Positions 7,625 through 61,704 of a stretch of 64,000 nt of DNA are shown here, piece by piece. Every line of letters starts with the position of its first letter. Position 1 is the first letter of the stretch. Source of the DNA: Phycisphaerae bacterium (GTDB taxonomy: Bacteria; Planctomycetota; Phycisphaerae; UBA1845); the NCBI GenBank assembly GCA_963666835.2, contig CAXXGO010000006.1:224001-288000 (forward strand). The letters are read 5' to 3'. The notes beneath the pieces were generated by a model that was not told the DNA's origin, searched no databases, and saw nothing but the letters and a program-made list of their open reading frames with translations. The position numbers were made by a program, and so were the translations under genes.

Positions 7625-10228
<2,604 letters not shown>

Positions 10229-10318
10229 TCACCCGGGGGCGGTCTTGAAATGCCGTCGTCCAGTACGCCCCGGCCAGATGACAGCCCGTTGCCCCATGAC
10301 ACCCGAGTGTCGTCACTT

Positions 10319-10546
10319 GTAGGGCAGCATCGAGGCACGAGACCTGGAAAGCACCGGAATAAACCGGCATGGAGTAGCGGATGAAAGAGCCGTACAGGAA
10401 AGGGCTAAGGTAGGAGCTGTATGACGTAATTCTCCACGTACGGATCTGTGCGGGGGGTGGCCCGAAAGGGCCATTCCTACCGCGACCCGCGAAGACGCAT
10501 GTCGCGCGAAAACCACGGCAGGTCTCGTGCCTCGACCGTGCCCTAC
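10319..10546. repeat. Inverted REP pair (REPIN-like); left arm interrupted by the mini-intron
   Basis: GTAGGGCAGCATCGAGGCACGAGACCTG at 10319-10346 and an inverted copy at 10517-10546. Confidence 0.85.
10347..10486 (+). mobile_element. 140-nt group II intron mini-derivative (5' end fused to DV-DVI) inserted in a REP
   Basis: The first ~61 nt match 35364-35424. They are followed by DV (GAGCTGTATGACGTAATTCTCCACGTACGGATC) and DVI ending CCTACCGCGAC. Flanks are GAGACCTG|CCGC. Confidence 0.9.
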
Positions 10547-10584
10547 AGGCGCCGTCGCTGCCCTACGTTTGCCGCCGGGGCTCG

Positions 10585-11544
10585 TCAGCCGGCTTGGACG
10601 AACAGCAGGGCCGAGCCGGCTACGGCCACGACTGCTCCGACGGCGGCGCGAAGGCTGATGCGCTCCTTCTCGACCCAAACGGCAAACGGCAGGATGAAGA
10701 CCGGCGTCAGCGAACAAAGAGTCTGAGCGATGCCCAGCTCGGTCAGATCCGACGCCACCAAGGACATCCACACTCCCAGATACGGCCCGAAGAAAGCGCC
10801 GCAGAGAGTGAGCACATAGCCTGCGCTGCGCGAACCGATCCTCTCGGGAAGAACTCCCGCCGCCCGCCGGCGTCGCCCGCGCTGGTGATGCAACAGCACG
10901 ATCGGGAACATCCCCAAACCGGCGAAGACCATGCGGATCAACGTGGCGGCCTGTGCCGTCAGGTGCTCATCCTCCGGCAGCCAGCCGTGGCCGATCCCCT
11001 GCTTGCTGAGCAGAAGACCGCCGGCCTGGCACGCCGCGGCCACGAGAGCCAAGACGATCCCCCGAGCGTGGTGAACCGACCTGGGGCGGTCCCGTCGGCG
11101 AGGCCTCTCCAGGACCACCCACGAGACCCCGCCGATGGTCAATCCGACCCCCAACCACGCGCCGCCGTGCAGTGTTTCACCGAGCGCCAGCCAGCCGAAC
11201 AACGCCGCCCAGAGCGGAGAGGTGGCCATGACAAGCATGCACAGCCGAGGCCCGAGATCCACAAACGCAACGAACAAGGCTTGATCACCCAGAGCCAGAC
11301 CTACGATGCCGGACAGGGCCAAGAACATCACCTGGCCCGCCACGGCCGGCGGTATCCAACTGCCGCTGATGATCCGGAACGTCACGGCCAGAAAGACTAT
11401 AGCCAGGCCGATTCGCAACGTGTTCACGAACGTCGGCCCCAGACGCCGCCCGGCGCTCGTAAAGCACAAGGCCGTTCCCGTCCAAAGAAGGGATGTCGTA
11501 ACACCCGCGGCCGGGCCTGCGTATATTCCGAGGTTATCCAACAT
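10585..11544 (-). CDS. DMT/EamA-family transporter
   Basis: About 10 hydrophobic helices in two EamA-like halves ('LFGWLALGETL', 'VWVEKERIS'). Confidence 0.9.
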   Translation of the reverse strand: MLDNLGIYAGPAAGVTTSLLWTGTALCFTSAGRRLGPTFVNTLRIGLAIVFLAVTFRIISGSWIPPAVAGQVMFLALSGIVGLALGDQALFVAFVDLGPRLCMLVMATSPLWAALFGWLALGETLHGGAWLGVGLTIGGVSWVVLERPRRRDRPRSVHHARGIVLALVAAACQAGGLLLSKQGIGHGWLPEDEHLTAQAATLIRMVFAGLGMFPIVLLHHQRGRRRRAAGVLPERIGSRSAGYVLTLCGAFFGPYLGVWMSLVASDLTELGIAQTLCSLTPVFILPFAVWVEKERISLRAAVGAVVAVAGSALLFVQAG

Positions 11545-18371: not shown

Positions 18372-18812
18372 GGAGTGGGCGAAGGCGATCGCCCGCACGT
18401 CATCAGCACGCGCGGGAGGAAAGTCCGAACTGGACAGGGCCCGGTGATTGGTAACGCCAACCCGGCGTGAGCCGAGGGAAAGTGCCACAGAAAAGACACC
18501 GCCGATGTCGGGGCGTTGTGCCTCCGGGTGACAATGCCCCGGCAGGTAAGGGTGAAATGGTGCGGTAAGAGCGCACCGCGCGACCGGTGACGGTCGTGGC
18601 AGGGTAAACCCCACCGCCAGCAAGCCCAAATAGGCAGCGAGAGGCGGCCCGTCTCGTTGAGCGGGGATCTGCGTCGGCCGAAACCGGCCGAGCGATGACT
18701 CCGCTTTGAAGCTGCGGGTAGGGCGCTCGAGCCGGCGGGTGACCGTCGGCCTAGATAAATGATCGCCACGCCGCCTGTGCGGCGGACAGAATTCGGCTTA
18801 TCCGCCCACTCC
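18372..18812 (+). ncRNA. rnpB: RNase P RNA (type A)
   Basis: GAGGAAAGTCC, GAAAGTGCCACAGAAA, GGTAAGGGTGAAA, GGTAAGAGCGCACC, GGTAAACCCCAC, AGATAAATGAT, ACAGAATTCGGCTTA. P1 helix GGAGTGGGCG/CGCCCACTCC. Confidence 0.97.
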
Positions 18813-19457
18813 ATCCGATCCGGCGCGTTGCTCAGTCGGTCGGCTTTCTGACGATCCGATCTCGCCGGGTGGCTGGAAGTTGGTCCCGTAGACCTGACGC
18901 ACGATATCGGCGAATTCACCGGGAAGCGGATCGGCCGACGGCGAAGTCGGACCGCGGCGCTGGTCGGCGGGCGGCGGCTTGTCCACCCGAACGGCCGCTC
19001 GGCGGCTCTCCGCCAGGATCTTGGCCAGCGCCACCAGTTCGTCGGTGGGAATCTCCTGCTCATTTAGGGCCAGCCGCTCATACACCAGCCCTACCAGCAT
19101 CAGGTATGCCCGGTGATCCCACAGATCCGGGCTGCAGTCGGCCAGGTGGCCGAACATCCCTTCGAGTACGGCCGCAACCGACGCCTGCCGGCGGCGATGT
19201 CGGACCAAAACGCCGCCCGCCCGCGCCGCCGCACTTGCATTCTGCTCGAGGTCATTCACCCTGGCCGCTTGGTGGACCCGCGACAGGTAGTTGCGAAGTC
19301 GACGGCGGGTGATCCCATACCGGCCGGTCAGAGCAAGACGGGTGTCAAGCTCCTCTACAAGGGCGGCGTTCACGTCGTCAGCGGAACGGGCTGCCGATTC
19401 GAGCTCCCGGACGACCGTGGCGGGCAGGAGCCTCTGCAAAGGGGTCCGAGCGGCCAT
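18798..19457 (-). CDS. Mu gp27/DUF3486-like protein
   Basis: Starts MAARTPLQRLLP, has an HTH-like YGITRRRLRNY and a C-terminal 'EFADIVRQVYG'. Coupled by TGATG to the upstream gene. Family assignment is by resemblance. Confidence 0.55.
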   Translation of the reverse strand: MAARTPLQRLLPATVVRELESAARSADDVNAALVEELDTRLALTGRYGITRRRLRNYLSRVHQAARVNDLEQNASAAARAGGVLVRHRRRQASVAAVLEGMFGHLADCSPDLWDHRAYLMLVGLVYERLALNEQEIPTDELVALAKILAESRRAAVRVDKPPPADQRRGPTSPSADPLPGEFADIVRQVYGTNFQPPGEIGSSESRPTEQRAGSDGVGG

Positions 19458-35363: not shown

Positions 35364-36033
35364 GAAAGCGCCGGGATAAACCGGCATGGAGTAGCGGATG
35401 AAAGAGCCGTACAGGAAAGGGTTAGCGTCCCATCCTGACCCCGAGTCATGCGCCGGGGGTCGCAAGGCCCCGGGCGAAGCGTTGACAGGGGCACAGGTGG
35501 GCCCGGCTATTGAGCTCCGAAAACGTGTACGTCTGCCGTGCCGACCCAGTCAGGTCACGGGGAAGGCCACATGAGCGGTGACGATAAGCGCGAGCCGTCG
35601 CTTGACGCCACGGAGTCGAAGACCCTGGGCACGCTTGGAAGCTCTATGCGCGAGAACCGGGAGGCCCCGAAGACTCCCTCGGCGGATAGCACCGGGGAAC
35701 GGTCGGAGAAGGGGGTTTGCCGAACGTCCGGCATGTACGTCTACGGGGAGTCGGACGATCTCATAGTACCAACGAAGCTGGCGAACAAAGCTGGGTAACC
35801 GGTGGCGGAGTCGGTGGAGGGAAGGGGATCGACCAAGGGCAACACCTTGCAGACTGCTGCGGGCCGGGCACAGCACCGGAAGCCCGGGCTCAGAACCGGG
35901 AAGCCCGCATCGATCGGGCTGGATGGTGTACGATCGACTGATCGTTATGACCCGAGGTAGGAGCCGTATGAGGTAATTCTTCACGTACGGATCTGTGCGG
36001 GGGGTGGCCCGAAAGGGCCATTCCTAGTGCGAC
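35364..36033 (+). mobile_element. ORF-less group II intron inserted in a REP
   Basis: DI-like motifs (CCCCGAGTCATGCG, GAAGCGTTGACAGGGG, ATTGAGC), Id3 loop with EBS1 CAGGTC at 35551-35556, GGGGAGTCGGAC/ATAGTACC DII-DIII region, DV GAGCCGTATGAGGTAATTCTTCACGTACGGATC, DVI, 3' GAC. No RT ORF. Confidence 0.93.
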
Positions 36034-56673: not shown

Positions 56674-57479
56674 GGTGCGCGCCTTTCCCGTTCGAGGTTC
56701 ATTTGAATAGACCAATCGTAGCACGGCCCCGTCATTGCACTCGACTATCGCGTGCGACGCAACCCGGGCTCGCTTGTGGCATGGCGATACCATACGCCCT
56801 GCCCACCCGACCTTGGGGCCGGCGGTGCTCCTCCGCCTCGAGTACTCGGCATTTGCGAAACCGGCGAAGACAATGAGACTGCGACCTGTCGTTGAAGCAG
56901 GTAGGGTCCGCTCCGCGGACCAATTCGCTTGTTGGCGGCAAAGGGCATCGAGGTTCGGATCGGACACCGGTGATTCAACATCATAAGGGAACCACGTTGG
57001 CGACCGCCGGGAGCTCTTCGATCATCGAAGTGCCGCCCTTGGGTTGACGTGCGACGCGATCCCGCGGCTTACGCCGCGGGCTGGACAGAGCTGTCGCCCT
57101 GACGGGCTGGTCCCGCACGCCACGCAGGTGGCACATATACGGCACTGTCGACCACGGGCAAGCTGCGCGCGTGCATGCTGGAAGCGCGGGCTGTGCGGCG
57201 GAATGCACATGAGCTGCGCTCATGCCACTCTCGATGGCAGGTCTCGTGCCTCGACCGTGCCCTACGAGGTCTTCGCGGGACGCGCGCCCGCATGGCGGGT
57301 CTCGCACCTCGAACGTCTACGGGGGGATGGTACGTGGGTGGCATGGGCCAACTTGTTGGCCCGTGGAGCGTGGTGCGGCGCAGGCGTCCACGAGCAAGCT
57401 GGAACAGTGCATCAGCGTAACGCGAGATCGAGTGACGAACCGTACTTCGCTACACAAACCGGCTATGCTTGCCACCCGC

Positions 57480-58048
57480 CGCGGGTCTCGTTCCTCGACC
57501 GTGCCCTACAGCCGCCGATGCTGCCCTACAAGGAGGCCGTCGTAATCAGCCTCGGTGGCAGGTCTCGTTCCTCGACCGTGCCCTACACCCGCCGATGCCG
57601 CCCTACAAGGAGGCCGCCGTAATCAGCCTCGGTGGCAGGTCTCGTTCCTCGACCGTGCCCTACACCCGCCGATGATGCCCTACAAGGAGGCCGTCGTAAT
57701 CAGCCTCGGTGGCAGGTCTCGTTCCTCGACCGTGCCCTACAGCCGCCGATGCTGCCCTACAAGGAGGCCGTCGTAATCAGCCTCAGTGGCAGGTCTCGTT
57801 CCTCGACCGTGCCCTACAGCCGCCGATGCTGCCCTACAAGGAGGCCGTCGTAATCAGCCTCGGTGGCAGGTCTCGTTCCTCGACCGTGCCCTACACCCGC
57901 CGATGCTGCCCTACAAGGAGGCCGTCGTAATCAGCCTCGGTGGCAGGTCTCGTTCCTCGACCGTGCCCTACACCCGCCGATGCCGCCCTACAAGGAGGCC
58001 GTCGTAATCAGCCTCGATGGCAGGTCTCGTTCCTCGACCGTGCCCTAC
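57480..58048. repeat. 77-bp tandem array built on the REP (7 units plus terminal REP)
   Basis: GGCAGGTCTCGTTCCTCGACCGTGCCCTAC starts at 57480 (degenerate), 57557, 57634, 57711, 57788, 57865, 57942 and 58019, with near-identical 47-bp linkers. Confidence 0.95.
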
Positions 58049-58627
58049 AGGGGTGCCAACCGGGTGGGTCAACTTGTTGAGCCGTGGAGCAAGTACGGTC
58101 CACGGAGTGGGCCCTGCACGCTGACGTACAATGGTGCGAGACATCTCATGCCGCCCGGTTGCGAGTGAATATCCGGTGCTTTCTCGCGGGGGACACCGAA
58201 CGAACATAAGCGGCGGGCAAGCGTGGAGGGACAGAGCAGTGTCACAATGGCGTGACCCCGTTGGGGTAGACTTCTCATCTGAGCGTGGACCCAGGGTAGC
58301 CGCTGCGCGGCAACCCTGGGCTTCAGGGCGAAACGCCTTCGGCGTAGTTCCACACGGCGAGGTGTTTATGTTTGGCGACGCGGGAACCTTCGGAAGAGAG
58401 ACGCCCACGTCACCTGCTGAGCCACCGTACGATTAGCAAACCGCCGGCACACCGCTCGTGGCAGTGCCCCGTTTGCAATACGTAGCTGTGGCCGCTTGCG
58501 ACGTCAAGAAGGTGTTTCTGGCTCGTCCGTTTTCGGCGGGGGATGTAAGAACCCGTCAGATTCGGCGAGGGGTAAGGGCGGGAGCGGGCATTACTATGGT
58601 AGAAGATCATCGATGAGGAGTATTCAC

Positions 58628-60892: not shown

Positions 60893-61704
60893 GCAGGGAT
60901 GCCTGCGCTACGCGAAAAGCAAAGGCAGGTCTCGTGCCTCGACCGTGCCCTACCCCTGGCACCGCGGCTCCGCCCACGCCGAGGGCGTACTCGGACGGGA
61001 CGCAGTCCGCACATCACAGAGAGGACTCTCTCATCTCGTCTGCCAAGGCTAGTACCATTGGGCTGAGCCCGACCTACCGCACTGCAGGGATGCCTGCGCT
61101 ACGCGAAAAGCAAAGGCAGGTCTCGTGCCTCGACCGTGCCCTACCCCTGACACCGCGGCTCCGCCCACGCCGAGGGCGTACTCGGACGGGACGCAGTCCG
61201 CACATCACAGAGAGGGCTCGCTCATCTCGTCTGCCAAGGCTAGTACCATTGGGCTGAGCCCGACCTACCGCACTGCAGGGATGCCTGCGCTACGCGAAAA
61301 GCAAAGGCAGGTCTCGTGCCTCGACCGTGCCCTACCCCTGACACCGCGGCTCCGCCCACGCCGAGGGCGTACTCGGACGGGACGCAGTCCGCACATCACA
61401 GAGAGGGCTCGCTCATCTCGTCTGCCAAGGCTAGTACCATTGGGCTGAGCCCGACCTACCGCACTGCAGGGATGCCTGCGCTACGCGAAAAGCAAAGGCA
61501 GGTCTCGTGCCTCGACCGTGCCCTACCTCTGACACCGCGGCTCCGCCCACGCCGAAGGCGTATTCGGGCGGGACGCAGTCCGCACATCAGAGAGGACTCT
61601 CTCGTCTCGCCTGCCAAGGTTAGTACCATTAGGCAAAGCCGGACCTACCGTACTCTCTCGTTTCGTCTGCCAAGGTTGGTGCCATTGAGCAGAGCCCGAC
61701 CTAC
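60893..61704. repeat. 191-bp tandem array (4 units plus partial) of three REP families
   Basis: GCAGGGATGCCTGCGCTAC starts at 60893, 61084, 61275 and 61466. Confidence 0.95.

What the first reader, a model, noticed from the sequence alone, without database searches (positions are those of the whole stretch)
10319..10546. 140-nt ends-only mini-intron at the identical REP bond, in an independent locus
Seen: 10347-10407 is the intron's first ~61 nt, joined directly to the DV-DVI 3' end (10408-10486). It has the same GAGACCTG|CCGC junctions as the long copy, but the more distant flanks differ, so these are two insertion events. It lacks EBS1 and most of DI-DIV, yet its DVI basal stem (GCGG/A-CCGC) is intact, whereas the long copy has GTGC there. 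Inference: it is either a post-insertion deletion or a SINE/MITE-like non-autonomous derivative that moves, or trans-assembles, with a partner ribozyme.
Basis: partly seen in the sequence, partly recalled or inferred. Interest (0 to 1): 0.8.

Follow-up and report, generated by a model that had tools for sequence, protein, structure and literature searches.

The report
Gutted group II intron remnant
This 140-base stretch behind gyrB is the two ends of a mobile self-splicing intron joined by one internal deletion; it was found only once and its catalytic hairpin has broken base pairs, so it is most likely an ordinary dead remnant and not a miniature mobile element.

Summary
Window 10347-10486 is nt 1-61 plus the last 79 nt of the intron family whose 670-nt ORF-less copy lies at 35364-36033, at the same GAGACCTG|CCGC bond in a different REP-like site. 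The junction is in contigs of two samples.

The mobile mini-intron reading is not supported. The junction occurs once in the genome. A pattern for such minis found no other copy in 278 same-order genomes, the species-genome collection or viral contigs, and 0 of 95 informative metagenome family loci were minis. The mini breaks 2 of 4 upper-stem pairs of domain V, which 33 of 33 other family ends keep. It has lost EBS1 and the partners of 20 of 27 predicted pairs of its 5' piece. The genome holds four copies of this family, each broken differently.

Best reading: a full-size parent homed into the REP, suffered one deletion, then drifted. Whether the deletion came after or during insertion is open; the ancestral allele of the site was not found. 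The scan has noted similar gutted class C remnants on other DNA (e1-4835931, e1-935299).

The parts
10319..10346 (+). REP-like palindrome unit forming the 5' exon; ends in IBS1 GACCTG (10341-10346)
   Evidence: Repeat family D13; at least 149 similar units in the genome (an undercount); pairs 6 of 6 with EBS1 CAGGUC of the long copy
10347..10407 (+). Intron nt 1-61: GAAAG start, 5' strand of the domain I basal stem, two small hairpins, 5' half of the next helix. Private changes at 10353, 10358 and 10405
10405..10408 (+). Deletion junction; removes 530 nt relative to the 670-nt copy and 1,783 nt relative to the 1,923-nt IEP-bearing relative in G014; possible CTA microhomology
10414..10446 (+). 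Domain V with AGC triad (10415-10417). 10418 gives a U-G wobble in the lower stem; 10425 and 10434 break two upper-stem pairs
10448..10486 (+). Domain VI with intact basal stem, bulged A at 10479 and terminal AC
10487..10546 (+). 3' exon CCGC, spacer, and an inverted second REP unit (10519-10546) that can pair with the first around the remnant
   Evidence: Inverted repeat I16, arms 10306-10346 and 10519-10559; fold
35364..36033 (+). 670-nt ORF-less copy of the same intron family, used as the reference; EBS1 CAGGUC at about 35551-35556; DVI altered at 36027-36028
   Evidence: Rfam RF02005 at 172 bits

Best explanation
The element is the two ends of a group II intron joined by one internal deletion, and it is most likely a dead remnant left where a full-size parent homed into the REP. 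Step 1 (inferred): a parent with domain I intact paired its EBS1 (CAGGUC) with GACCUG and reverse-spliced into the REP at GAGACCTG|CCGC, which explains the exact junctions. Step 2 (junction shown, timing inferred): a single deletion, probably a slipped or microhomology join in the chromosome, removed nt ~59-62 to the base of domain V. Step 3 (shown): the retained ends took six private changes in 140 nt, including two that break the domain V upper stem. Both ends survive because the deletion fell inside the intron, not because they work. It is predicted to be unable to splice or move, and it probably persists because it lies between two convergent genes where it interrupts nothing.
For: Single copy: the junction word occurs once in 6.02 Mb; 1 of 279 same-order genomes matches a mini pattern, G000 itself; 0 matches in genome contigs and viral contigs (the pattern hits the mini in the window); no match spanning both halves among the listed hits from 400 phylum genomes; 0 minis among 95 of 120 metagenome family loci with at least 160 nt downstream. 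Decay: domain V keeps 4 of 4 upper-stem pairs in 33 of 33 other distinct ends, with changes on both sides, but 2 of 4 in the mini, whose fold is the weakest (-5.4 against -8.5 to -17.2 kcal/mol). Missing parts: EBS1 pairs with the last 6 exon bases at 5 or 6 of 6 in 16 of 16 scorable introns and is absent from the mini; 20 of 27 predicted pairs of nt 1-61 have lost their partner. Context: the genome has four copies of this family, each broken differently (670 nt, 140 nt, nt 1-93, nt 1-28) and none with its own IEP. Among the metagenome loci 19 break off on the 3' side and 4 carry deletions that reach outside domain IV. Fragmentation is the usual fate of bacterial group II introns (passages of PMC4424553, PMC2504315, PMC4181065, PMC4496777).
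Against: No allele of this site with a longer intron or with no intron was found, so the order of events is inferred. The microhomology is 3 nt only if the parent had the CTA variants seen in G014 and L108 (3' side) and in 41 of 120 loci (5' side); with a parent like the long copy it is 0-1 nt. First breaks at nt 58-71 occur in 4 of 19 broken metagenome copies (P = 0.25 by a uniform scan test; 0.045 with the mini added), a faint hint of a preferred break region. The C1 remnant ends exactly at the 3' exon bond, which random DNA deletion would seldom give. Only 120 of about 780 metagenome stretches were seen, and the patterns need exact matches to this subfamily.
Confidence: 0.7

Rival explanations
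1. Dead on arrival. The full-size RNA reverse-spliced into the REP, and during cDNA synthesis the reverse transcriptase or a host polymerase copied DVI and DV, then skipped the folded core and resumed near nt 60. The element is equally dead; only the timing differs.
For: Both exon bonds are exact and the right break lies at the foot of domain V. The C1 remnant joins nt 93 to the exact 3' exon of a common REP subtype (26 sites with GAGACCTG-CCGTGG). L129 has a left break at about nt 67-74 joined to the ORF region. PMC2504315 names incomplete reverse transcription as a cause of fragments (passage).
Against: The clustering of breaks is not significant without the mini (P = 0.25), and one of the four clustered breaks (L039) is followed by another intron. 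Breaks in the family are scattered from nt 50 to 1665. No ends-only product was seen among the 12 recent insertions of the active family A in this genome.
Confidence: 0.22
2. A non-autonomous mini-element that moves, or splices, by assembling in trans with a partner intron that supplies the domain I core, EBS1, domains II-III and the protein.
For: Both ends, the AGC triad, the bulged A and the DVI stem are kept. The 670-nt copy has a matching EBS1. Twelve copies of a related intron encode an IEP 55-56% identical to the family's own. PMC3753933 states that DI and DV alone suffice for single hydrolysis steps in vitro (passage).
Against: One copy only, against at least 149 REP targets. No second locus or 18/41. 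Domain V upper stem broken and G7 changed at a pair that trans-assembly would need. The active family inserts at GGGTGGGGG|AC, not at this bond. A partner's own 5' strand and domain V would occupy the same places in cis (inference).
Confidence: 0.03
3. The remnant has been kept as part of the 3' end of the gyrB or EamA transcript, acting as a stabilising or terminating structure together with the inverted REP pair.
For: It lies between convergent genes. The REP arms fold into a long stem around it (z = -6.6). The same allele is in two samples. PMC4181065 hypothesises cis-regulatory roles for intron fragments (passage).
Against: The fold comes mainly from the REP arms, which an empty site would also have; the 140 nt alone give z = -2.4. 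No terminator-like or promoter-like site. The substitutions break rather than keep the intron's pairs.
Confidence: 0.04
4. Assembly artefact: a collapse between the two ends of a longer copy.
For: The locus is made of repeats, and the run contigs break around it.
Against: A 90-nt contig spans the junction with no difference in X1, X2 and X4, and the joint is in X3. The mini has six private bases found in no other copy in the genome.
Confidence: 0.01

Closest known systems
Fragmented bacterial group II introns, e.g. FRE652 and the internally deleted RmInt1 copy of S. meliloti AK83 (PMC4181065, passages; also passages of PMC4496777, PMC3522654, PMC2504315)
   Same: Intergenic, inactive, single-copy remnant of a mobile intron whose intact relatives exist elsewhere.
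   Different: The papers stress loss of the 3' terminus; here both termini remain and about 93% of a full-length intron is gone. The survey in PMC3522654 discarded hits under 100 bp, so 61- and 79-nt pieces like these could have been missed.
ORF-less bacterial group II introns mobilised in trans, e.g. B.c.I7 of Bacillus cereus E33L (PMC2504315, passage; PMC4424553, passage)
   Same: No IEP of its own; related IEP-encoding introns are in the genome.
   Different: Those lose the ORF only and occur as near-identical copies at several sites. The mini has lost the ribozyme core and occurs once.
Group III introns of Euglena chloroplasts (PMC4424553, passage)
   Same: Similar size class (90-120 nt against 140 nt); a domain I piece plus domain VI.
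   Different: Group III introns lack domain V, number over 150 with degenerate group II introns, and lie in genes from which they must be spliced. The mini keeps a damaged domain V, is single and is intergenic.
Bacterial class E (IIE) group II introns, e.g. Cl.be.I2 (PMC3753933, passages)
   Same: The parent family matches Rfam RF02005 (172-184 bits) and uses a 6-nt EBS1-IBS1 pairing.
   Different: The family starts GAAAGCG rather than GUGYG (120 of 120 loci). The class E label is recalled and taken from earlier scan notes; I built no IEP tree.

Membership tests
Group II intron (descent) | Domain V-VI homology | tested here: met
   RF00029 at 32.3 bits, E 0.0025, below the gathering score of 40; the G014 relative scores 43.8. 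94% identical to the G014 3' end.
Group II intron (descent) | Precise insertion at an IBS1 complementary to the family's EBS1 | tested here: met
   GACCUG pairs 6 of 6 with CAGGUC of the long copy; CCGC is the commonest word after the REP unit, 54 of 149.
Functional group II ribozyme | Domain I scaffold with EBS1, and domains II-III | tested here: not met
   Deleted; 20 of 27 predicted pairs of nt 1-61 have no partner; no RF02005 match at the mini.
Functional group II ribozyme | Intact domain V hairpin | tested here: not met
   Triad kept, but 2 of 4 upper-stem pairs broken against 0 in 33 other ends.
Functional group II ribozyme | Domain VI with bulged A and terminal AY | tested here: met
   10448-10486.
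Functional group II ribozyme | Splicing shown in vitro or in vivo | not testable with these tools
   Needs an RNA assay.
Non-autonomous mobile derivative (SINE/MITE-like) | Several copies of the same unit at different sites | tested here: not met
   One copy.
Non-autonomous mobile derivative (SINE/MITE-like) | Autonomous partner in the genome | tested here: inconclusive
   No IEP of the same family; a related IEP at 55-56% identity in 12 copies. The assembly is 92% complete.
Group III intron | Lacks domain V and is spliced from coding transcripts | tested here: not met
   Domain V is present and the site is intergenic.
Class E (IIE) lineage | IEP falls in the class E clade | not tested
   No tree built; label recalled and given in earlier notes e1-8304425 and e1-8304985.
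REP element (target) | Multicopy intergenic GTAG-headed palindrome with a Y1 (RAYT-type) transposase in the genome | tested here: inconclusive
   At least 149 units; 9 PF01797 matches, not tied to this repeat. The GTAG/RAYT association is recalled.

The most novel reading that the evidence does not exclude
A bacterial counterpart of group III introns: an ends-only group II derivative that was placed in the REP, or is excised from the gyrB transcript, by assembling in trans with the 670-nt copy's domain I core and a related intron's protein. It would be a natural split ribozyme resembling an early step towards snRNA-type splicing. It would have to be confined to one unsampled lineage and already decaying.
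Probability: 0.03. Interest if true: 0.75.

Novelty: new member of a known kind. Interest (0 to 1): 0.1.

Why it matters
Little as it stands: it is one more intron fossil, at the extreme short end of a continuum of deletions. It is a useful control for screens that take 'both ends kept' as a sign of a mobile mini-element, and it records a fourth past insertion of this intron family into the host's REP-like repeats. If ends-only copies proved to arise during retrohoming, they would give a genomic signature of polymerase skipping on structured intron RNA. If the mini proved to splice in trans, it would be a natural split group II ribozyme in bacteria.

Tried and rejected
One search, the first genome-contig scan, found 0 but is void as a test: its pattern would not match the mini's own altered domain V. 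One search replaced it, with a positive control.

No RNA holder listed, so expression and excision are untested.

No joint skipping 10347-10486 was listed in the run contigs, but contigs drop rare variants. The 10346-to-10517 joints carry about 30 other letters and look like other REP loci. Run X5 covers part of the EamA flank but not the junction.

The junction contig's depth is close to its flanks (4.5 against 4.3 and 2.8 in X1; 13.7 against 13.1 and 10.7 in X2; 2.1 against 3.4 in X4). The tool warns that depth is no copy number, so this is only a weak hint.

Orthologous-site test: no same-genus genome is held.

Breakpoint hotspot at nt 58-71: tested on 19 first breaks within nt 28-450. I left out three breaks beyond nt 450 (L081, L102, L107) and four domain IV-only deletions. 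Not significant without the mini.

One search scored only two candidates per genome, so it is a weaker negative. The REP count recovered only 1 of the 3 known intron-bearing sites and is a lower bound.

No promoter-like or terminator-like site in 10150-10700. No look-alike in the scan's notes by sequence.

Literature: five searches listed no paper describing a mobile ends-only bacterial group II element. I read passages of six papers and no supplements; subscription journals are largely outside the library.

Full report
What is there. The locus lies between gyrB (7664-10228, +) and a convergent EamA-family gene (10585-11544, -). Window 10347-10486 consists of nt 1-61 and the last 79 nt of the intron whose 670-nt ORF-less copy lies at 35364-36033. 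Both sit at GAGACCTG|CCGC in a REP-like palindrome. Beyond the repeat the flanks are unalike and the neighbouring genes differ, so these are separate sites. A second, inverted REP unit at 10519-10546 can pair with the first around the remnant. A 90-nt contig spans the junction without differences in runs of two samples, so it is not an assembly error.

The parent family. A 1,923-nt relative with an intact reverse transcriptase ORF lies in G014:C446; it is 96% and 94% identical to the two halves of the mini. The family is widespread: about 780 metagenome stretches hold its 5' motif, of which 120 were returned. In 16 of 16 scorable introns the EBS1 loop pairs with the last six exon bases at 5 or 6 of 6; for the long copy it is CAGGUC against GACCUG. 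This explains the shared bond. The class E label for the family is recalled and given by earlier notes; I did not test it with a tree.

Is it a mobile unit? The junction word occurs once in the 6.02-Mb genome. A pattern allowing a range of deletion sizes matches the mini in the window and nothing in genome contigs or viral contigs (records of the own genome may be left out there). A looser pattern matched 1 of 279 same-order genomes, G000 itself. None of the listed hits from 400 phylum genomes spans both halves. Of the 120 metagenome loci, 95 have at least 160 nt downstream of the 5' end and none is a mini. The 32 with both ends visible are 27 full-length, one of 1,345 nt and four ORF-less of 679-722 nt. 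These negatives are limited to this subfamily and to exact patterns, and most of the metagenome matches were not seen.

Is it under selection? Against the long copy, the C1 remnant and G014, the mini has six private changes in 140 nt; the long copy has two over the same positions. In domain V, 33 of 33 other distinct ends keep all four upper-stem pairs, with changes on both sides, while the mini breaks two and folds most weakly. Its Rfam RF00029 score is 32.3 bits against 43.8 for G014; the long copy scores 31.8 because of its DVI change. Of 27 predicted pairs that start in nt 1-61, 20 have lost their partner, and EBS1 and domains II-IV are gone.

Context. The genome holds four copies of this family, each broken differently: 670 nt, 140 nt, nt 1-93 (C1:352856) and nt 1-28 (C6:1508537), with no IEP of their own. 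A related family is active, with 12 near-identical 1.93-kb copies at another target, GGGTGGGGG|AC, and an IEP 55-56% identical to that of G014. Among the metagenome loci 19 break off on the 3' side and 4 have deletions reaching outside domain IV. The mini is the short end of this range. Passages of PMC4424553, PMC2504315, PMC4181065, PMC4496777 and PMC3522654 describe truncation, fragmentation and internal deletion as the common fate of bacterial group II introns.

How it arose. I favour homing by a full-size parent, one deletion in the chromosome, then drift (0.70). The two closest DVI relatives, G014 and L108, have CTAAGG before domain V, and GGGCTAG is the commonest 5' variant (41 of 120), so a 3-nt CTA microhomology is possible; with a parent like the long copy it would be 0-1 nt. 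The main rival is skipping during cDNA synthesis at the time of insertion (0.22). For it: the right break lies at the foot of domain V, and the C1 remnant ends exactly at its 3' exon bond. Against it: the clustering of first breaks at nt 58-71 is not significant without the mini (4 of 19, P = 0.25; 0.045 with it), and one of those breaks is followed by another intron. Both readings leave the element dead. Trans-assembly or mobility gets 0.03, a kept role in transcript ends 0.04, and artefact 0.01.

Comparison. It works like no active element; it is a fragmented group II intron. It differs from ORF-less introns mobilised in trans by lacking the ribozyme core and by being single. It resembles Euglena group III introns in size only: those lack domain V and are spliced from genes (PMC4424553, passage). 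Five literature searches listed no mobile ends-only bacterial group II element. Earlier notes of this scan reached the same verdict for gutted class C copies in other genomes; I did not check those loci.

Limits. No same-genus genome is held, so the ancestral allele is unknown. Splicing was not tested. Supplements of the papers were not read. Verdict: real, ordinary, interest 0.1.

Noticed in passing
G000:C1:352764-352856 (-), L018: A remnant of nt 1-93 of the same intron joined to CCGTGG, the exact 3' exon of a common REP subtype. The intron's 3' end is gone with no exon base lost, which random deletion would seldom give.
   Followed up: partly
G000:C6:1508537-1508564: A fourth copy reduced to nt 1-28 behind a decayed REP end, followed by another REP unit.
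   Followed up: partly
window 36023-36033; L028 (G032:C265): The long copy's altered DVI reads CCTA-GTGCG-AC. In G032 a family member has CCTA followed by GTGCG and a long sequence with a weak group II match (RF02003, E 0.0035). The long copy's change may be the scar of a second intron nested at that bond and later deleted; speculative.
   Followed up: partly
window 35611-36008, run X2: Two variants of the ORF-less copy's interior (20 and 2 differences in 231 nt) and about doubled contig depth across its ORF-deletion junction: a weak hint of a second ORF-less copy or strain in that sample.
   Followed up: no
L038, L046, L085, L109; also L022-L026: ORF-less forms of about 680-720 nt with breaks near the same two places in domain IV recur in unrelated records: either repeated loss or a mobile ORF-less lineage.
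   Followed up: no
L095 at about nt 404 of the intron: A second copy of the family nested in the first begins GTGCGCC, so canonical and GAAAG-start members coexist with the same downstream sequence.
   Followed up: no
L137: A family 3' end joined directly to the 5' end of another copy: a tandem insertion or a circle-derived junction.
   Followed up: no
L039, L042: Two family copies are interrupted, at nt 63 and nt 295, by the same other group II intron type (RF01999).
   Followed up: no
window 57404-58127 and 60893-61574: Tandem arrays of 77-nt and 191-nt units that contain the same REP-like palindrome.
   Followed up: no
window 18372-18816: RNase P class A RNA with two sizeable insertions relative to the Rfam consensus.
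   Followed up: no
G000:C6:1065621-1067030 and C7:69129-69536: A further, more distant group II intron region (IEP 44% identical to that of G014) and a 3'-only fragment of the active family.
   Followed up: no
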